From Chitinophagaceae bacterium (GTDB lineage Bacteria; Bacteroidota; Bacteroidia; Chitinophagales; Chitinophagaceae), in contig JBHENB010000005.1 of assembly GCA_046262255.1 (NCBI GenBank), positions 350-64,349 of the forward strand: a stretch of DNA of 64,000 nucleotides. The letters run 5' to 3'. How positions within the stretch are numbered: position 1 is the first letter of the stretch; each line of letters begins with the position of its first letter. This document shows, in pieces, positions 24,158-62,269 of the stretch. A program made the position numbers and the translations under genes. Below the pieces are notes generated by a model, which worked only from the letters and a program-made list of their open reading frames with translations, did not search any database and had not been told where the DNA came from.

Positions 24158-26833
24158 ATGAATCAACCTAAACGATACTTAATTACAGCCGCATTACCAT
24201 ATGCAAACGGTCAAAAACACATAGGGCATTTAGCCGGTGCATATTTGCCTTCAGATATCTATGTGCGGTACCTGCGGGCACAAAAGAGAGATGTGGTTTT
24301 TATTTGTGGCAGTGATGAACATGGTACCGCCATCCCCATCCAGGCAATGAAAGAAGGCACAACGCCTCAGGCTATCATTGATAAGTACCACTTGCAGATA
24401 AAACAAAATTTTGAAGATCTATTTATTTCATTTGATATATACGACCGCACAAGTAATCCTGTACACCACGATACAGCCCAGGAATTTTTTACTTACCTGA
24501 ATGACAGAGGTGAACTGGACATAAAAGAAACAGAACACTATTTCGATGAACAGGCACAAACATTTTTAGCCGACAGGTATATAAAGGGCACCTGTCCTAA
24601 TTGTGGTTTTAACGGGGCTTTTGGCGATCAATGTGAAAAATGCGGAACATCATTAAGTCCTGATGAATTGATAAATCCTGTAAGTACATTAAGCGGAAAT
24701 AAACCAATAAAAAAAGCTACAAAACACTGGTATCTGCCACTTAACAAACATGAAGAATGGCTTCGCACCTGGATACTTACTGAACATAAGGACTGGAAGA
24801 CCAATGTATTTGGTCAATGCAAAAGCTGGCTGGATACCGGTTTGCAACCCAGAGCGGTTACAAGAGATCTGGACTGGGGAGTGAAGGTACCAAGCCCCCC
24901 CACCCCCCAAAGGGGGGATTTAGCATCCACACAAAGCCAGCTTGCGAAAGAGCACTATAAATATGCAACAGCAGATCCGCTGCAATATTCTTTATTAAAA
25001 GAGTTTGTGAAAACGCATAGAAGTCAACCGACAGAAGCGGAAAGAGTTTTGTGGGAAATGCTCAGAGGGAAAAAACTTGAAGGCTATAAATTCAGACGTC
25101 AACATATAATAGGAACTTTTATCGCAGATTTTTTTTGCTTGTCTAAAAAATTAATTATTGAAGTGGATGGGCTAACTCATCAATTACCTGAAAATAAAAT
25201 AAATGATGAAGAGAGAACTAAATGGTTGAATGAAAACGGCTACGAAGTAATCCGTTTCACAAATAATGAAGTTTTACTTAATACTGAAGGAGTATTAAAT
25301 ACACTTCTGCACAAGCTACAAATATTACCAAATCACAAAACCAATGATGAAGATGCAAAAAGAGAGGTTAGTGCGGATGCTGAATTCCCCCTTCGGGGGG
25401 ACTTAGGGGGGCTGAGCGGAAAGGTCCTCTACGTGTGGTTTGATGCACCAATAGGCTACATCAGTGCAACAAAGCAATGGGCTTTAAATACAGGAAAAGA
25501 CTGGAAATCGTACTGGCTGGATAAAGAAACCAAACTGGTACATTTTGTTGGCAAGGATAATATCGTTTTCCATTGCATCATTTTCCCTGTAATGCTAAAG
25601 TTGCATGGCTACATTCTTCCCGATAACGTTCCTGCAAATGAGTTCATGAATTTAGAAGGTGATAAAATGAGTACCAGCCGAAACTGGAAGCTGGACATGC
25701 AGGATTACATTGATGATTTTGTAAAGAAAGAAAATGGCGGTCCTGCAATGGTGGACGCCTTGCGTTACTATTTAACTACTATATTGCCGGAAACAAAAGA
25801 CAGTGAATTTACCTGGAGAGGGTTTCAGGATGCAGCAAATAGTGAGTTGGTAGCTGTATTTGCCAACTTCGTTAATAGAACATTTGTGTTGATGCACAAA
25901 CTGTGTAAAGGAAAAGTGCCGAAGTTTCATAAGGATAGTGCTGATGAGAAAGACCAGGCATTGATTGAAGAGATCAAAGCATCAAAAACTAAAATAGAAA
26001 ATGCATTAGAACAATACAAATTTCGGGATGCTCTTTTTGGAGTGATAGACCTGGCACGAAGTGGAAACAAATACCTGCAGGAAAAGGAACCGTGGAAAAA
26101 AGCCTCAAGCGATAAGACGCAAGCTACAAGTGAGGAAAATCAAATACTTGTTGACAATTGCCTTCATGTGTGCTTACAGCTTTCTGCTAACCTTGCAATT
26201 TACATAAATCCCTTTCTTCCAAACATCGCAAAGAAAATTTGCCACATGATGAAGGTTGTAGATAAAATGTTGGAGTGGGAAAATGCTGGTAAGCTGAACT
26301 TACTGAGTGTAGGTTATTCTCTGCGGGCACCTGAACTATTATTCAGAAAAATTGAAGATACCGAAGTACAGCATCAAATTGAAAAATTAAAACAAGGATT
26401 AGAAAGATCAAAAATGGAAAAAAAGAACCAACCGACAAATAGCAATGAGCAAACAAATCAAAGTTCTGGAAGCGAGCATGCTCAATCTGCAATCTTAAAT
26501 CTTAAATCTGAAATTGTTTATGATGATTTTGCAAAGCTGGACTTACGCATTGGCACTATAACAGCAGCAGAAAAAGTAAAAAAAGCAGACAAACTCTTAA
26601 AGCTGGAAGTGGATCTTGGTTTTGAAAAAAGAACAATAGTTTCAGGCATAGGGCAGCATTTTCAGCCCGATTCACTCTTGAATAAACAGGTAATACTTGT
26701 AGCTAATCTTGCACCACGAAAAATGAGAGGAATTGAAAGCCAGGGAATGATCCTTACTGCTGAACAGCCCGATGGGAAGCTGATCCTGGTAAGCCCCGAT
26801 GCCATTACAAACAATGGCTCGGAGGTTCGTTAA
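24158..26833 (+). CDS. metG: Methionine--tRNA ligase with in-frame DUF559 endonuclease insertion and C-terminal tRNA-binding domain
   Basis: PYANGQKHIGH (HIGH), Zn knuckles CPNC/CEKC, KMSTS, C-terminal Trbp111-like domain; ~175-codon insert between WGVKVP and GKVLYVWFD. Confidence 0.97.
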   Translation: MNQPKRYLITAALPYANGQKHIGHLAGAYLPSDIYVRYLRAQKRDVVFICGSDEHGTAIPIQAMKEGTTPQAIIDKYHLQIKQNFEDLFISFDIYDRTSNPVHHDTAQEFFTYLNDRGELDIKETEHYFDEQAQTFLADRYIKGTCPNCGFNGAFGDQCEKCGTSLSPDELINPVSTLSGNKPIKKATKHWYLPLNKHEEWLRTWILTEHKDWKTNVFGQCKSWLDTGLQPRAVTRDLDWGVKVPSPPTPQRGDLASTQSQLAKEHYKYATADPLQYSLLKEFVKTHRSQPTEAERVLWEMLRGKKLEGYKFRRQHIIGTFIADFFCLSKKLIIEVDGLTHQLPENKINDEERTKWLNENGYEVIRFTNNEVLLNTEGVLNTLLHKLQILPNHKTNDEDAKREVSADAEFPLRGDLGGLSGKVLYVWFDAPIGYISATKQWALNTGKDWKSYWLDKETKLVHFVGKDNIVFHCIIFPVMLKLHGYILPDNVPANEFMNLEGDKMSTSRNWKLDMQDYIDDFVKKENGGPAMVDALRYYLTTILPETKDSEFTWRGFQDAANSELVAVFANFVNRTFVLMHKLCKGKVPKFHKDSADEKDQALIEEIKASKTKIENALEQYKFRDALFGVIDLARSGNKYLQEKEPWKKASSDKTQATSEENQILVDNCLHVCLQLSANLAIYINPFLPNIAKKICHMMKVVDKMLEWENAGKLNLLSVGYSLRAPELLFRKIEDTEVQHQIEKLKQGLERSKMEKKNQPTNSNEQTNQSSGSEHAQSAILNLKSEIVYDDFAKLDLRIGTITAAEKVKKADKLLKLEVDLGFEKRTIVSGIGQHFQPDSLLNKQVILVANLAPRKMRGIESQGMILTAEQPDGKLILVSPDAITNNGSEVR
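24893..25413 (+). mobile_element. Putative palindrome-bounded element encoding a DUF559/Vsr-like endonuclease domain, in frame with metG
   Basis: TEAERVLWEMLR, FRRQHIIG, IADF, IIEVDG..H, D..RTKWL...GYEVIRF motifs. Ends are AGCCCCCC (24893-24900) and GGGGGGCT (25406-25413), each beside an internal hairpin. Confidence 0.8.
26100..26134 (+). repeat. Heptamer tandem array inside metG
   Basis: AAGCCTC-AAGCGAT-AAGACGC-AAGCTAC-AAGTGAG, period 7, same AAG family as 9372-9399. Confidence 0.6.
26484..26515 (+). repeat. Heptamer tandem array in the metG linker
   Basis: AATCTGC-AATCTTA-AATCTTA-AATCTGA-AATT. Confidence 0.65.
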
Positions 26834-30933: not shown

Positions 30934-33357
30934 ATGGCCAAACGAATAATCAAAAAAGTTGCAGTATTAGGTAGTGGAGTTATGGGCTCAAGAATTGCCT
31001 GTCATTTTGCAGGCATCGGCTTACAGGTTCTTTTGCTGGATATTGTGGCCCCTTCTGACTCCCCCGAACGGGAAGAAATAAAGGCCCAAAGAAATAAAAT
31101 AGTCAATGACTCGTTAGCTGCAGCAATTAAGTCTAATCCCTCACCTGTTTATTATAAAGATGTAGTAAACCGCATTACAACGGGAAATTTTGATGACAAC
31201 CTGAAAGACATTGCCGACTGCGATTGGGTAATTGAAGTGGTGGTGGAAAGATTGGATATTAAACGTTCCCTGTATGAGAAAGTAGAACAATTCAGAAAAC
31301 CAGGAACATTAATTACATCCAACACTTCCGGCATACCTGTAACTATGCTAAGTGAAGGAAGAAGCGATGATTTTAAAAAACACTTTTGCGGCACACACTT
31401 TTTTAATCCCCCAAGATACCTGCGGTTACTGGAAATAATCCCTACCGTTCATACCAATGCGGAGGTAACTAATTTCTTAATGTATTACGGCGATTTGTAT
31501 TTAGGTAAAACCACTGTTCTTGCAAAAGACACTCCTGCATTCATTGCCAACCGTATTGGCGTATTTGGTATTATGTCAGTTTTTCAGTTAGTAGAAAAAC
31601 TTGCTTTATCCATTGATGAAGTAGATGCATTAACAGGGCCAGTTATCGGGCGCCCAAAGTCAGCAACGTTTAGAACTGCAGATGTAGTGGGTATTGACAC
31701 ATTGGTAAAAGTGGCCAAAGGTGTTTATGAAAATTGCCCCCACGACGAAGCAAGAAACATTTTTATAATACCAGAATGGCTTGACAAAATAGTTTCTAAC
31801 AACTGGTTGGGTGATAAAACAGGCCAGGGATTTTTTAAAAAAATGCCCCCATCTCCTAAAGGGGAGAAAGAGATTCATGTTTTGAATCTTTCAACTCTTG
31901 AGTACGAACCCCGCCAAAAACCAGGGTTTGCTTCCTTAGATGCCGCCAAGCCTGTGGAGGATTTAAAACAGCGGTTAAAAATGCTGATGGCGGCGCAGGA
32001 TAAAGCTGGTGAATTCTACCGTCACCTGCACTATGGGTTATTCTCTTATGTGTCGCACCGCATTCCTGAAATCAGTGATGAAATATACCGTATTGACGAT
32101 GCCATGAAGGCCGGTTTCGGGTGGGAAATTGGTGCTTTTGAAAGCTGGGATGTGTTAGGCGTTGAAAAAGTAGCGAAAGAGATGCAGAATGCCGCCCGCC
32201 CGGATGATCCACTTGGACGGGGATACAAAGTTGCAGAATGGGTGGAAGATATGCTGGCAAAAGGAATCAAATCTTTTTACACAGAAGAAAATGAAGTAAG
32301 GAAAGCCTATTCACCTTTTAATAAAGGTACTGAAAAGACAGAGGTTCCCCAATTCTCCTCTTCTATCAGGGGAGGACGGGAGGGGGATAATCTTGTTTGG
32401 AAAAACGCCAGTTGCCATGTTTATAACATTGGTGATGATGTTCTGAGGCTTCAGTGGAATACAAAAATGAATAGTATTGGCGGAGATGTTTTAAGTGGAA
32501 TAAACAAAGCAATTGAGCTGGCGGAAAAAGACTACAAGGGATTGGTGATTGCAAATAAAGGCGCCAACTTTAGTGCCGGCGCCAATGTCGGTATGATCTT
32601 CATGTATGCTATTGAACAGGAATTTGATGAACTGAATTTTGCCATACGCTTATTTCAAAATACGGCTATGCGCATCCGCAATTCTTCTGTTCCTGTTGTA
32701 GTGGCTCCGCATGGTTTAACCTTAGGTGGCGCTTCTGAAATTTGCTTACACAGCGATAAAGCATGTGCGGCAGCAGAAACGTATGCAGGACTGGTGGAGT
32801 TGGGTGTAGGCCTTATCCCCGGTGGGGGTGGAACAAAAGAATTTGTACTCAGAGCCTCTGATGAAATGCACCAGGATGAACCGGAAACCATTACTTTAAA
32901 AAATCGGTTTTTAACCATCGCAACCGCAAAAGTGGGTACATCTGCCTTTGAAAGTTTAGAAATAGGAATTTTCAGAAAAGGCGTTGACGAAATAGTAATT
33001 AATGCGGACAGGCGTATTGAGGAAGCAAAAAAAGCGGTTATTGAATTGCACGACAGTGGGTATGTGATGCCGGTGCAGCGAAAGGATATTAAAGTTTTAG
33101 GACGAAGCGCATTGGGTGCATTGTACTCCGGTATCCACGGCATGTGGCGTGCAGGGTATGCAACAGATCACGATGCATTGGTTGCAAAAAAATTAGCTTA
33201 TGTTATGTGCGGCGGCGACCTCAGTGAACCCTCTTTAGTAAGTGAACAATATTTGCTGGACCTGGAACGGGAAGCTTTTTTATCTCTTTGCGGTGAAAGA
33301 AAAACGCTGGAACGGATTCAAAGTGTACTAAAAAGCGGTAAACCAATTCGCAATTAA
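30934..33357 (+). CDS. 3-hydroxyacyl-CoA dehydrogenase / enoyl-CoA hydratase (FadN-like)
   Basis: VLGSGVMG, EVVVERLDIK, SNTSG and HFFNPPRY motifs; C-terminal crotonase domain (FSAGAN, ELGVGLIPGGGG). Confidence 0.95.
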   Translation: MAKRIIKKVAVLGSGVMGSRIACHFAGIGLQVLLLDIVAPSDSPEREEIKAQRNKIVNDSLAAAIKSNPSPVYYKDVVNRITTGNFDDNLKDIADCDWVIEVVVERLDIKRSLYEKVEQFRKPGTLITSNTSGIPVTMLSEGRSDDFKKHFCGTHFFNPPRYLRLLEIIPTVHTNAEVTNFLMYYGDLYLGKTTVLAKDTPAFIANRIGVFGIMSVFQLVEKLALSIDEVDALTGPVIGRPKSATFRTADVVGIDTLVKVAKGVYENCPHDEARNIFIIPEWLDKIVSNNWLGDKTGQGFFKKMPPSPKGEKEIHVLNLSTLEYEPRQKPGFASLDAAKPVEDLKQRLKMLMAAQDKAGEFYRHLHYGLFSYVSHRIPEISDEIYRIDDAMKAGFGWEIGAFESWDVLGVEKVAKEMQNAARPDDPLGRGYKVAEWVEDMLAKGIKSFYTEENEVRKAYSPFNKGTEKTEVPQFSSSIRGGREGDNLVWKNASCHVYNIGDDVLRLQWNTKMNSIGGDVLSGINKAIELAEKDYKGLVIANKGANFSAGANVGMIFMYAIEQEFDELNFAIRLFQNTAMRIRNSSVPVVVAPHGLTLGGASEICLHSDKACAAAETYAGLVELGVGLIPGGGGTKEFVLRASDEMHQDEPETITLKNRFLTIATAKVGTSAFESLEIGIFRKGVDEIVINADRRIEEAKKAVIELHDSGYVMPVQRKDIKVLGRSALGALYSGIHGMWRAGYATDHDALVAKKLAYVMCGGDLSEPSLVSEQYLLDLEREAFLSLCGERKTLERIQSVLKSGKPIRN
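31048..31075 (+). repeat. Left-end-like palindrome in FadN-like gene (APSDSPERE)
   Basis: GCCCC-ttctgac-TCCC-ccgaac-GGGA. Confidence 0.5.
31845..31867 (+). repeat. Left-end-like palindrome in FadN-like gene (PPSPKGE)
   Basis: GCCCCC-A-TCTCC-taaagg-GGAGA, same layout as the metG left end GCCCCCCC-A-CCCCCC-aaa-GGGGGG. Confidence 0.65.
32194..32221 (+). repeat. Short palindromic insert in FadN-like gene (RPDDPLGR)
   Basis: CCCGCCC-ggatgatccactt-GGACGGG imperfect hairpin; 24-nt in-frame peptide between AA and GYKV. Confidence 0.55.
32305..32386 (+). repeat. Miniature two-ended palindromic element in FadN-like gene
   Basis: Left hairpin ACCTTT-taat-AAAGGT (32313-32328); right hairpin CTCCTCT-tctatc-AGGGGAG (32355-32374) followed by GACGGGAGGGGG. 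Confidence 0.6.
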
Positions 33358-61030: not shown

Positions 61031-62269
61031 ATGAAAAACCACTTGCAAAATATTTCCATTAAAGAATACAATTATGATTTATCACCACATTCTATTGCTA
61101 AGCATCCGACATCAGAAAGGGATGAATCCAGATTATTGATTTTCAGAAAAGGGAGAATTGAGGAAGATATATTCCAGAATTTAGATGATCATTTGCCTGC
61201 AGGCGCCACTTTGGTGTTGAACAATACTAAAGTAATTGAAGCGAGAATATTTTTTGCGAAACCTACTCGTGGTATTATCGAGATCTTCTGTCTGGCCCCT
61301 TACGAACCGTCAGAAATAGATGCGGCTATGCAACAGTCAGGTAAAGTAAAATGGAAGTGTTTGATTGGTGGTGCTTCAAAATGGAAACGAGGGCAATTAT
61401 TAAAAAAAACGATTTTTCTGGATAAGCCTGTTGCATTGGCGGCACGGTTTATTGAAAAGCACCATGAAGATTCTGTAATTGAGTTCAGTTGGAATACGGA
61501 ACATCCTTTTGCAGAGGTGTTACATGCAGCAGGAGTAGTTCCTTTACCACCTTATATTAAGAGAAGTGTTGAAGTTTCTGACTCATACAGATATCAGACA
61601 ATTTTTGCTAAACTACAAGGTTCAGTAGCAGCACCTACAGCAGCATTACATTTTACAGAACGTGTTTTTATAAAATTATCTCATAAAAATATTTGTTGCG
61701 AGTATTTAACGTTGCATGTAGGTTCAGGAACATTTAAACCCGTAAAGTCCGCAACTATTGCAGAGCATTCCATGCATGCGGAAACATTTACTGTTTCTTT
61801 AAAAACTTTAAAAACTTTAGCAGGTGCAAATGAAATAATAGCAGTAGGAACTACTTCTCTACGCACCCTGGAAAGTTTACATTGGCTTGGAGTAAAATTT
61901 CGGCTAAATAAATCATCCTTTGATTACGCACTGCACCAGTGGGAGGCTTACGAGTTAGCCCATCATAATATCACTTTTACCGAAAGCCTAAATACACTTG
62001 TACAATTTATGGAGCAAACAAACCAGGATCAAATTTCTTGTCGTACCAGCCTTATGATTATACCCGGCTATTCGTTTAAATCTGCAAGAGGATTAATAAC
62101 CAACTTTCACCAGCCAAAATCTACGTTATTGCTACTGGTAGCAGCTTTTATTGGAGAAGACCAGCCTACCGGTCAGGCAGGTTGGAAAGAAATATACAAT
62201 TATGCATTGCAAAACAACTACCGCTTTTTAAGTTATGGCGATAGCAGCCTGTTGTGGAGAAACTTTTGA
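61031..62269 (+). CDS. queA: S-adenosylmethionine:tRNA ribosyltransferase-isomerase
   Basis: LVLNNTKVI, PLPPYIKR, YQTIFA, AAPTAALHF, TNFHQPKSTL and FLSYGDS motifs; probable ATG at 61031. Confidence 0.96.
   Translation: MKNHLQNISIKEYNYDLSPHSIAKHPTSERDESRLLIFRKGRIEEDIFQNLDDHLPAGATLVLNNTKVIEARIFFAKPTRGIIEIFCLAPYEPSEIDAAMQQSGKVKWKCLIGGASKWKRGQLLKKTIFLDKPVALAARFIEKHHEDSVIEFSWNTEHPFAEVLHAAGVVPLPPYIKRSVEVSDSYRYQTIFAKLQGSVAAPTAALHFTERVFIKLSHKNICCEYLTLHVGSGTFKPVKSATIAEHSMHAETFTVSLKTLKTLAGANEIIAVGTTSLRTLESLHWLGVKFRLNKSSFDYALHQWEAYELAHHNITFTESLNTLVQFMEQTNQDQISCRTSLMIIPGYSFKSARGLITNFHQPKSTLLLLVAAFIGEDQPTGQAGWKEIYNYALQNNYRFLSYGDSSLLWRNF
62162..62182 (+). repeat. 21-nt palindromic in-frame insert in queA (QPTGQAG)
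   Basis: CAGCCTACCGGTCAGGCAGGT between GED and WKEIY; imperfect CCT.CC...GGCAGG palindrome. Confidence 0.65.

What the first reader, a model, noticed from the sequence alone, without database searches (positions are those of the whole stretch)
31048..32386. One FadN-like gene carries four separate palindromic in-frame inserts
Seen: hairpin-derived segments at 31048-31075 (APSDSPERE), 31845-31867 (PPSPKGE), 32194-32221 (RPDDPLGR) and 32305-32386, all without breaking the 807-codon frame. Inference: an insertion hotspot, or a loop-tolerant enzyme that records repeated invasions by at least two repeat families.
Basis: partly seen in the sequence, partly recalled or inferred. Interest (0 to 1): 0.7.

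Follow-up and report, generated by a model that had tools for sequence, protein, structure and literature searches.

The report
Repeat relics inside a fatty-acid enzyme gene
The only FadN-type beta-oxidation gene of this Chitinophagaceae bacterium carries, read through in frame, four short worn-down copies of G/C-rich repeats that are scattered through the genome and sit inside many of its housekeeping genes, and related bacteria have separately picked up repeats at the same four loop positions.

Summary
The gene (window 30934-33357, 807 aa) is an intact FadN/FadB-type enzyme. All four flagged segments derive from repeats, shown by matches to dispersed families rather than by their own folding.

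- **Site 1** (31047-31077): a decayed left end.
- **Site 2** (31844-31866): matches 20/21 the left ends of DUF559 nuclease cassettes.
- **Site 4** (32345-32386): a right end, 26/29 to another copy.
- **Site 3** (32194-32220): a clean 27-nt (9-codon) insert from a separate hairpin family with 13 genomic copies.

Sites 1, 2 and 4 have the layout C-run/hairpin or hairpin/G-run. Genome-wide the outer run mirrors the adjacent arm (86 against 1), as in intrastrand-triplex motifs.

Only site 3 is a pure insertion. The others replace native codons; site 4 overwrites a motif conserved across Bacteroidota.

About 227 orthologs show a patchy distribution. Site 3 occurs in three non-sister lineages (AU p=0.002), with the insert far better conserved than its flanks. 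Other lineages carry different repeats at the same positions.

A good AlphaFold model places all four in loops or linkers.

FadN is not unique: IleRS carries five such segments.

The closest analogues are Rickettsia palindromic elements. The mechanism of entry is not shown.

The parts
30934..33357 (+). FadN/FadB-type 3-hydroxyacyl-CoA dehydrogenase / enoyl-CoA hydratase gene, 807 aa, intact
   Evidence: ORF. Pfam 3HCDH_N, 3HCDH, ECH_1 and ECH_2. About 78% identity to Chitinophagaceae orthologs, whose modal length is 793 aa. It is the only full-length copy in the genome. Positions invariant across 79 orthologs are kept, including H155, E167, E602 and E622. I take these four to be the catalytic residues from my own recollection of the family.
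31047..31077 (+). Site 1: decayed left-end unit (C-run, spacer, hairpin), read as APSDSPEREE. It replaces about 8 native codons, net +2.
   Evidence: Match of 27/31 to C14:10038-10068 and 20/22 to C1:6035; 4 of 300 shuffles do as well. It resembles the left end of the Acs DUF559 cassette, GCCCCCTCTAACTCCCCCAACGGGGGAGAA. G002's FadN carries a 27/28 copy at the same place. In the model it is the loop after strand beta-2; pLDDT dips to 64.
31844..31866 (+). Site 2: solo left end (CCCCCATCT-CCTAAAGGGGAG), read as PPSPKGE. It replaces native K-G-x-G-G-E, net +1 codon.
   Evidence: Match of 20/21 to C26:18443 and C26:18886, the two ends of a DUF559 cassette; 0 of 300 shuffles. The 12-mer occurs 14 times in the genome. 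Orthologs L033, L035 and L061 hold near-perfect copies in the same register. It is a beta-hairpin loop just after the end of the classical HAD fold.
32194..32220 (+). Site 3: clean 27-nt insertion of the plain hairpin family GCCCGCCCGGATGA..GGACGGG, read as ARPDDPLGR
   Evidence: A 9-codon gap in all other orthologs except L031 and L032. There are 13 pattern matches in G000 and at most 1 in each of 40 relatives. The same unit is read as ARPDDPVGRG in what looks like a thiolase of G001 and G022. It is a loop between helices 410-419 and 435-442.
32345..32386 (+). Site 4: right-end unit (hairpin CTCCTC..GGGGAGG, spacer AC, mirror G-run GGGAGGGGG) with a short C-run upstream, read as PQFSSSIRGGREG. 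It overwrites the conserved PGxxxFIILSNYQ block.
   Evidence: Match of 26/29 to C14:8021-8049, 17/17 to C117:2529 and 17/18 to the IleRS copy at C1:27551; 0 of 300 shuffles. Twelve codons are replaced at equal length, with a 2-codon indel upstream. The motif is nearly invariant in orthologs. pLDDT is below 50 at residues 473-484.
32313..32328 (+).
   Evidence: Appears in the minimum-free-energy fold, but the whole segment has z=-0.83 only. No GC-rich family match. The words are common AT-rich 12-mers.
24893..25413 (+). Reference full-length element in the same window: a DUF559 cassette in frame in metG, with a C-run+hairpin left end and a hairpin+G-run right end
   Evidence: Sequence. DUF559 hit at C5:25347-25667 inside a 904-aa open frame. 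Ends compared.

Best explanation
The four segments are separate relics, of different ages, of short G/C-rich selfish DNA units that have spread through this genome and its relatives.

**What the units are**
- Three of them (sites 1, 2 and 4) are single ends of one element class. Its complete forms are 92-143-nt hairpin-ended mini-elements and roughly 500-nt cassettes that encode a DUF559 (Vsr-like) nuclease.
- Each end is a three-part unit: a C-run mirroring the C-arm of a C/G hairpin, or on the other strand a hairpin followed by a mirror G-run. This is the architecture of an intrastrand-triplex motif.
- The fourth (site 3) is a 27-nt unit of a separate plain-hairpin family.

**How they came to be here**
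- The units entered the coding DNA of FadN. This is shown by comparison with orthologs and by family membership.
- Copies persist only where they keep the frame, carry no stop codon and fall in surface loops or linkers. This is inferred from the model and from the same positions being used again in other lineages.
- They then decay by point mutation, which is why none of the four is a good hairpin now.
- I infer that entry is by a break followed by copying from another genomic copy, often with loss of neighbouring native codons. This would explain why three of the four events are replacements. It would also explain why the same unit sits at the identical nucleotide position in diverged lineages.
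- The enzyme responsible is not identified. The DUF559 nuclease is the only candidate encoded by the element class.
- The enzyme itself appears to remain functional.
For: **Family membership of each site**
-.

**The phenomenon is genome-wide**
- Strict C/G hairpins: 178 in the genome against 15 in the reversed-sequence control.
- 127 of these carry a flanking C-run or G-run, against 2 in the control. About half lie inside ORFs of 200 aa or more.
- 27 paired elements and 73 solo ends.
- The outer run mirrors the adjacent arm in 86 of 87 decisive cases, p=1e-24.
- In-frame copies occur in ORFs whose translations read as MetH, Acs, UvrA, IspG, PcrA, GcvP, IleRS, AspRS and others; these names are my reading, with no family search run.
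- There are 5 DUF559 copies, 4 of them inside host ORFs.

**The segments are derived**
- They are absent from 29 GTDB relatives and 78 diverse genomes, except as noted.

**The distribution is patchy**
- Tree and state-change counts.
- Monophyly of the three site-3 carriers is rejected: delta lnL 79, p-AU 0.0024.
- The site-3 insert is 97% identical between L031 and L032, while the 60-nt flanks are 65-72% identical.

**The same positions are used by other families elsewhere**
- Site 1: L005, L057, L062, L064, L074.
- Site 2: L034, L032, L014.
- Two residues from site 3: L094, LPDGQAG.
- Site 4: P0009, L053.

**Location in the protein**
- Loops and linkers of a model with mean pLDDT 85.2 and pTM 0.80.
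- Residues 4-302 align to solved HAD structures. The fold search aligns about 470 columns of the model to trifunctional-enzyme alpha subunits.

**Replacement is common elsewhere too**
- In IleRS some events are pure insertions and others replace native codons.
Against: - None of the four FadN segments meets the strict hairpin criteria or folds significantly. Each is assigned by similarity to short, low-complexity families.
- Site 1 is the weakest: 4 of 300 shuffles match as well.
- No target-site duplication or common target motif was found.
- No transposase was identified. A Y1/RAYT-type enzyme is absent, and nuclease activity of DUF559 is untested.
- The break-and-copy step is inference only.
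- Solo ends outnumber paired elements (73 against 27). The nuclease may therefore be a passenger rather than the driver.
- The ortholog tree has many weakly supported forks, so counts of gains are approximate.
Confidence: 0.8

Rival explanations
1. Classical cut-or-copy transposition of complete two-ended elements (a mini-element or a DUF559 cassette) into FadN. Deletion between the two near-identical hairpins, or decay, then leaves single-end footprints. The replacements are later compensatory deletions that restore loop length.
For: Complete two-ended forms exist in the same genome, with the same ends as sites 1 and 2. Site 4 has a short C-run upstream and a G-run downstream of one hairpin, the layout expected after collapse between the two end hairpins. 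IleRS holds a two-ended mini-element between LPPTPKGEQ and IPPSGGGGAA.
Against: Sites 1 and 2 carry only the C-run side, not the C-run/hairpin/G-run footprint. The identical 21-nt relic at site 2 recurs in non-sister lineages, so it would have to form the same way each time. No full element was seen at these FadN sites in about 227 orthologs; the one long insert, in L101, is not hairpin-ended as far as I checked. No target-site duplications were found.
Confidence: 0.3
2. The segments are kept because they do something, for example as flexible Pro/Gly linkers that tune the enzyme, or as mRNA or DNA structures that affect expression or local recombination. Under this view their family resemblance reflects selection rather than selfish spread.
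For: The site-3 insert is much better conserved than the flanking coding DNA: 97% against 65-72%. The stems are conserved while the loop varies. The triplex-motif architecture is strongly maintained genome-wide. In E. coli such motifs are linked to local instability (PMC4666352).
Against: In FadN the hairpins are decayed and fold no better than shuffles. The same units sit in dozens of unrelated genes and in intergenic DNA. Most orthologs do without them. Site 4 destroys a conserved motif instead of adding a linker.
Confidence: 0.08
3. Ordinary variable loops that happen to be GC-rich, with no mobile origin; or an assembly or binning artefact of a metagenome-assembled genome.
For: All four positions are indel-prone in the family anyway. 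The segments are short and of low complexity. The assembly is a 150-contig MAG and contains a stray second FadN N-terminal fragment, C150.
Against: For sites 2 and 4, 0 of 300 shuffles reach the observed family match. A 17-nt exact GC-rich match and 14-17 copies of 12-mers occur in a genome of 38% GC. The same units are found at the same sites in independent assemblies from other samples: L031, L032, L033, L035 and L061.
Confidence: 0.03

Closest known systems
Rickettsia palindromic elements (RPEs; Ogata et al. 2000, as reviewed in PMC10969869)
   Same: Dispersed palindromic repeat families inserted in frame into many unrelated housekeeping genes. They are translated as extra peptides, are absent from orthologs, and lie where the fold tolerates them.
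   Different: - RPEs are about 100-150 bp and come from AT-rich obligate intracellular Alphaproteobacteria.
- Here the FadN units are 21-42 nt and strongly G/C-rich in a genome of 38% GC, in free-living Chitinophagaceae.
- The units have a three-part mirror-plus-hairpin architecture and also occur as the ends of nuclease-encoding cassettes.
- Several are replacements, not insertions.
- No sequence homology to RPEs was tested or is expected.
Intrastrand triplex motifs: PIT / BoxC / TMECO repeats (Hoyne et al. 2000, cited in Holder et al. 2015, PMC4666352)
   Same: A three-segment G/C-rich unit, pyrimidine arm, purine arm, then a second purine run after a short loop (class II); on the other strand, a C-run followed by the hairpin. 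The units are highly repeated and no transposase is associated. The mirror relation is met here in 86 of 87 decisive cases.
   Different: TMECO in E. coli K-12 is reported as always intergenic (PMC4666352). Here about half of the units lie inside ORFs and are translated, and they also flank DUF559 cassettes. Triplex formation by these sequences is untested. Site 3 lacks a third segment.
Very small dispersed repeats of heterocyst-forming cyanobacteria (Elhai et al. 2008; from my own recollection, cited in PMC3116915 and PMC2884548)
   Same: Mobile-looking imperfect palindromes of about 21-27 nt. They appear at sites that are empty in related strains, including inside genes without breaking frames.
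   Different: Different phylum and sequences. I could not re-read the paper here, so this comparison is a lead and not a test.
Homing endonuclease genes of the Vsr-like/EDxHD family
   Same: The pattern expected of homing is seen: a patchy phylogenetic distribution at the same site of a conserved gene, with the insert more conserved than its flanks. The complete elements of this class encode a Vsr-like (DUF559) nuclease.
   Different: The FadN units encode no protein. There is no intron or intein context. No elevated flank identity suggests co-conversion.

Membership tests
RPE-like in-frame palindromic repeats (functional class) | Member of a repeat family dispersed in the same genome | tested here: met
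   Site 1 is the weakest: 27/31, with 4 of 300 shuffles doing as well.
RPE-like in-frame palindromic repeats (functional class) | Inserted in frame, stop-free, in an otherwise intact conserved gene, and absent from orthologs | tested here: met
   Only site 3 is a pure insertion; sites 1, 2 and 4 replace native codons.
RPE-like in-frame palindromic repeats (functional class) | Located in surface loops or linkers compatible with the fold | tested here: met
   AlphaFold model with pLDDT 85.2. The sites fall at 37-44, 304-313, 420-434 and 459-486, all non-regular segments with dips in confidence. Solvent exposure itself was not computed.
RPE-like in-frame palindromic repeats (functional class) | Element of about 100-150 bp with sequence homology to Rickettsia RPE families | tested here: not met
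   The units are 21-42 nt. Homology to RPEs was not searched and is not claimed. This is an analogue, not a member.
Intrastrand triplex motif (PIT/BoxC/TMECO type) | Three segments: hairpin arms plus a third run that mirrors the adjacent arm after a short spacer | tested here: met
   Genome-wide, mirror beats direct in 86 cases against 1, and 61 are perfect mirrors. In FadN, site 4 has G-arm GGGGAGG and third run GGAGGGG, a perfect mirror. Site 1 has CCCCTTC against arm CTCCCCC, a mirror match of 6/7. Site 2 is trivially C-only. Site 3 has no third segment.
Intrastrand triplex motif (PIT/BoxC/TMECO type) | Forms a triplex in vitro | not testable with these tools
   Needs CD or NMR on oligonucleotides, as in PMC4666352.
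Intrastrand triplex motif (PIT/BoxC/TMECO type) | Intergenic location (as reported for E. coli TMECO) | tested here: not met
   67 of the 127 run-flanked hairpins lie inside ORFs of 200 aa or more. All FadN copies are intragenic.
Ends of DUF559 (Vsr-like nuclease) cassettes | Sequence match to the terminal inverted repeats of nuclease-bearing cassettes in the same genome | tested here: met
   Site 2 matches the ends of the C26 cassette 20/21 and resembles those of the C3 cassette. Site 1 resembles the left end of the Acs cassette. For site 4 the matching copies are solo ends, not cassette ends.
Ends of DUF559 (Vsr-like nuclease) cassettes | Nuclease ORF between two ends at the locus | tested here: not met
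   FadN has no DUF559 domain. The units are solo.
REP/RAYT system | Cognate Y1 (IS200-like) transposase in the genome | tested here: not met
   No PF01797 match in G000, which is 93.7% complete; the controls give hits.
FadN/FadB-type bifunctional beta-oxidation enzyme (the host gene) | NAD-binding 3HCDH domain plus C-terminal crotonase domain, with the family-invariant residues kept | tested here: met
   Pfam domains. Positions H155, E167, E602 and E622 are invariant across 79 orthologs and kept in the query. HAD structures are matched over residues 4-302, and the fold search finds trifunctional-enzyme alpha subunits. Enzyme activity is not testable here.

The most novel reading that the evidence does not exclude
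Protein-free DNA units of 21-30 nt (triplex-type ends and plain hairpins) integrate in a sequence-directed, homing-like way. The same unit then lands at the identical nucleotide of a conserved gene in lineages whose flanking DNA has diverged to about 70% identity, often overwriting native codons. On this reading FadN is a natural allelic series of filled, empty and differently filled sites. That series would make the targeting rule, and the role of the DUF559 nuclease, directly testable.
Probability: 0.25. Interest if true: 0.8.

Novelty: new variant of a known kind. Interest (0 to 1): 0.6.

Why it matters
Translated selfish repeats inside essential genes are best known from Rickettsia. Here the same behaviour appears in free-living soil and water Bacteroidota, with units that are much smaller, G/C-rich and triplex-shaped, and that are tied to a nuclease cassette family I could not find described in print.

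FadN adds three points.
- Single ends persist as worn relics that can only be recognised by family comparison.
- The same loop positions, and in some cases the same nucleotide, are hit again and again in separate lineages.
- Entry often replaces native codons, once erasing a motif conserved across the phylum.

In practice, such relics inflate apparent loop divergence, shift alignments and mislead annotation of 'lineage-specific' insertions. They also mark positions in enzymes that tolerate insertions.

Tried and rejected
- **Inverted-repeat scan and folding of the four segments**: not significant. The 'palindromic' label rests on family homology only.
- **First structure model from 20 close sequences**: mean pLDDT 41, unusable. 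Replaced by a 79-sequence model.
- **GC-island and loose k-mer censuses**: too noisy, because conserved native motifs such as IPGGGGT are counted. Even the strict word census counts two native motifs in FadN. I therefore do not claim a formal per-gene excess.
- **Compensated frameshift as the cause of site 4**: rejected. The replaced 36 nt share no similarity with the native block in any register, and their composition differs sharply.
- **Homologous-recombination transfer of site 3 between lineages**: flank identity is not elevated.
- **REP/RAYT mechanism**: no Y1 transposase.
- **Rfam match for the ~100-nt intergenic element that holds most family-A hairpins**: none.
- **Literature searches** for in-frame palindromic repeats in Bacteroidota or for DUF559 cassettes found nothing specific.
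Full report
**The gene**

Window 30934-33357 (+) is an 807-codon ORF. It carries an N-terminal NAD-binding 3-hydroxyacyl-CoA dehydrogenase domain, its C-terminal domain, and a C-terminal crotonase domain.
- It is the only full-length gene of this type in the 2.57-Mb, 150-contig, 38%-GC assembly.
- The best database relatives are Chitinophagaceae proteins at about 78% identity. Their modal length is 793 aa, so the query is 14 residues longer.
- The adenylate-cyclase gene downstream is syntenic in relatives.
- Positions invariant across 79 orthologs are kept, including H155, E167, E602 and E622. From my own recollection of the family these are the catalytic residues.

**Are the four segments palindromes?**

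Only weakly.
- An inverted-repeat scan of the gene with 6-nt seeds lists none of them.
- Folded as single strands, none beats dinucleotide shuffles; z ranges from +0.39 to -0.90.

Taken alone, then, the observation would be unconvincing.

**Are they repeat-derived?**

Yes, by comparison with the rest of the genome.

The genome is full of G/C-rich repeat words, such as CTGCCTGCCGG, GGGGGACAGGGGGC, TCCCCCTTCGGGGGA, TCCCCCGTTGGGGGA, CCCGCCCGGATGA and CCCCAACCCCT.

| Site | Evidence of family membership |
|---|---|
| 2 | CCTAAAGGGGAG occurs 14 times, always preceded by a C-run. Best non-self match 20/21; 0 of 300 shuffles reach it. |
| 3 | CCGCCCGGATGA occurs 17 times. Gapped match 27/30 at C22:13602. 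|
| 4 | 17-nt exact match at C117, 26/29 at C14:8021-8049, 17/18 in IleRS; 0 of 300 shuffles. |
| 1 | 27/31 at C14:10038-10068; 4 of 300 shuffles do as well. |

Site 1 gains support from a congener. G002's FadN holds, at the same position, GCCCCCTCTAACTCgCCCAACGGGGGAGAA. That is a 27/28 copy of a unit found in frame in the ORFs I read as MetH and Acs, and in a third ORF, in G000.

**What the units are**

G000 has five DUF559 (PF04480) domains. Four sit inside larger open frames, including the one in metG in this window.
- Each cassette begins with [C-run][spacer][C-arm, loop, G-arm] and ends with the inverted form, [hairpin][spacer][G-run].
- Site 2 matches the ends of the C26 and C3 cassettes. 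Site 1 matches the left end of the Acs cassette. Site 4 has the right-end layout.

A strict scan gives the genome-wide picture.
- It required a perfect stem of 5 bp or more, a pyrimidine 5' arm with at least 4 C, and a loop of 3-7 nt.
- It finds 178 hairpins, against 15 in the reversed-sequence control.
- 127 of them have a flanking C-run or G-run, against 2 in the control.
- 67 of those 127 lie inside ORFs of at least 200 aa, spread over 49 genes.

Pairing them gives 27 two-ended elements and 73 solo ends. Most paired elements measure 92-143 nt, and three measure about 500-527 nt.

Following a lead in earlier notes of this scan, I tested whether the outer run mirrors the adjacent arm.
- Among 104 informative ends, the mirror matches better than the direct sequence in 86 cases and worse in 1 (p=1e-24). 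Sixty-one are perfect mirrors.
- This is the architecture of class II/IV intrastrand-triplex motifs, known as PIT, BoxC or TMECO (PMC4666352).
- In E. coli those motifs are reported as strictly intergenic.

Site 3 belongs to a different family, a plain hairpin.
- There are 13 pattern matches in G000 and at most one in each of 40 relatives.
- Most G000 copies sit inside a roughly 100-nt intergenic repeat with no Rfam match.

No Y1/RAYT transposase is present.

**Insert or replacement?**

I codon-aligned the query with 29 GTDB relatives, 6 metagenome contigs and 78 diverse genomes.
- Site 3 is a clean 27-nt insertion.
- Site 1 replaces about 8 native codons with 10.
- Site 2 replaces K-G-x-G-G-E with MPPSPKGE (+1).
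- Site 4 replaces 12 codons at equal length, with a 2-codon indel just upstream.

Site 4 erases PGxxxFI[IV][LM]xN, which is nearly invariant across Chitinophagaceae, Sphingobacteriales, Flavobacteriales and even Ignavibacteria-labelled MAGs. The new block shares nothing with the old in any register, so it is not a compensated frameshift.

IleRS of the same genome shows the same mix of pure insertions and replacements.

**Distribution among orthologs**

- **Site 3.** Only three of about 227 orthologs carry it: the query, L031 and L032. On a tree built with the four sites masked they are not sisters. The AU test rejects holding them together (delta lnL 79, p=0.0024). I named the group after seeing a first tree, so the p-value is somewhat optimistic.
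- **Insert against flanks.** The site-3 insert is 97% identical between L031 and L032 and 80-83% identical to the query's copy. The 60-nt flanks are 58-72% identical, with no local rise that would suggest recombinational transfer.
- **Same unit in another gene.** The same 27-28-nt unit, read in the same frame as ARPDDPVGRG, sits in what looks like a thiolase gene of G001 and G022.
- **Site 2.** The PPSPKGE form occurs in 44 of 149 close orthologs and in several other genera. Near-perfect DNA copies in the same register are interspersed with native-state lineages. Other lineages carry a right-end unit there (L034, L032, L014).
- **Site 1.** Different units occupy it in L002, P0086, P0109, L032, L005, L057, L062, L064 and L074.
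- **Near site 3.** L094 has a CCTGCCTG-family hairpin two residues away (LPDGQAG).
- **Site 4 region.** P0009 and L053 carry other units.
- **Overall.** The four positions are landing or survival sites used again and again across the family.

**Structure**

A second, from 79 sequences, has mean pLDDT 85.2 and pTM 0.80.

| Site | Location in the model |
|---|---|
| 1 | Loop after strand beta-2 of the Rossmann fold; pLDDT 64 in that block |
| 2 | Beta-hairpin loop just past the end of the classical HAD fold |
| 3 | Loop between helices 410-419 and 435-442 |
| 4 | The 459-486 stretch before the first strand (487-490) that follows it; residues 473-484 fall below pLDDT 50 |

The fold search aligns about 470 columns of the model to trifunctional-enzyme alpha subunits.

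**Is FadN special?**

It lies in the upper tail but is not unique.
- By crude counts it ranks among the top dozen or so of 2212 ORFs. Those counts include native motifs.
- IleRS carries five repeat-derived segments. The ORFs I read as Acs, MetH, GcvP, UvrA and others carry two or more.

**Mechanism**

- **Shown:** family membership, derived state, patchy recurrence, loop location, and frequent replacement of native codons.
- **Inferred:** selfish spread with a selection filter for frame, absence of stops and loop position, followed by decay.
- **Proposed:** entry by a break and copying from another genomic copy, possibly aided by short similarity between the target and the unit. This is my preferred reading because it accounts for both the replacements and the same-nucleotide recurrence. 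It is not demonstrated.
- **Main rival:** classical transposition of two-ended elements followed by collapse.

**Literature**

Searches of the held library found no description of in-frame G/C-rich repeats or DUF559 cassettes in Bacteroidota. The nearest printed analogues are these:
- Rickettsia palindromic elements (PMC10969869);
- intrastrand-triplex repeats (PMC4666352);
- from my own recollection, the very small dispersed repeats of cyanobacteria.

Noticed in passing
G000 contigs C6:43448, C10:42679, C13:42214, C16:32456, C17:10883, C22:13863 and 26104, C49:13930, C93:2721, C108:4668 (loci L117-L123): About 10-12 copies of a roughly 100-nt intergenic repeat (...TTATGTTACCAAC..CTATT.AACTTTTGTTGC-CCGCCCGGATGAACCGTTCGGACGGGCG-TCGCACTCTTGTAC..TAATTCTA..). 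Its core is the site-3 hairpin. It often lies about 70 nt downstream of a GCCCCCTGTCCCCCGAAGGGGGA unit. It has no Rfam match.
   Followed up: partly
G000 contig C150 (502 nt, outside the window): A stray contig encodes a second FadN N-terminus (MQKRIIKKVAVLGSG...LLLDIAPQDAADEKSRN). It is 87% identical to residues 1-46 and lacks the site-1 repeat. It probably comes from a related strain or species binned into the MAG. It also carries a CCCTCTCCACAAGTGGAGAGGG hairpin.
   Followed up: partly
G000 C1:25798-29352 (IleRS; locus L131): IleRS carries five in-frame repeat-derived segments that are absent from 11 relatives: AAPLNLPEGETSASA, MFSSPAGGGREGA, a two-ended mini-element running from LPPTPKGEQ to IPPSGGGGAA, and a clean 21-nt LPTGQVG insert. 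In the second, the native DNA next to the unit looks frame-shifted by 1 nt (ggcggtgatgta against ggagtgatgtt). This hints at insertions that are not multiples of three being rescued by nearby indels.
   Followed up: partly
G001:C201:1653-1680 and G022:C30:67788-67815 (loci L124, L125): The site-3 hairpin unit is read in frame as ARPDDPVGRG at the same position of a thiolase-like ORF in two congeners. So the same unit and the same frame occur in a second apparent beta-oxidation gene. The thiolase call is my reading of the translation; no family search was run.
   Followed up: partly
L101:301-2859 (Chitinophagaceae MAG CBDFFM010000011.1): This FadN ortholog has a 55-aa insertion at site 2 (AAGPQKADAPTMGKDTAEAVNDGKATFTKSPEEHGDETKVDPIGSGAKKEVPAPK). 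It does not look like a hairpin unit.
   Followed up: no
L037, L044, L046, L071, L072, L036, P0103, P0110 (FadN site 2): A clade-spanning 8-aa insertion, (V/L)P(I/M/L/V)T(Q/E)GSP, followed by EERKS, sits at site 2. In L037 its GC content is 0.40, the same as the gene, so it is not repeat-like. It is a third, unrelated kind of change at the same loop.
   Followed up: no
G000 C4:33981-36464 (the ORF I read as Acs) and C64:3-1403: The ORF I read as acetyl-CoA synthetase carries both a roughly 150-nt mini-element and a full DUF559 cassette in frame. The partial ORF on C64 carries a DUF559 cassette plus an extra solo end immediately after its right end.
   Followed up: partly
L094:301-2688 (Bacteroidia MAG), two residues after FadN site 3: A perfect CCTGCCTG-ACGGA-CAGGCAGG hairpin is read as LPDGQAG. 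This is the same family as the 21-nt QueA insert noted at window 62162-62182 and as IleRS LPTGQVG.
   Followed up: partly
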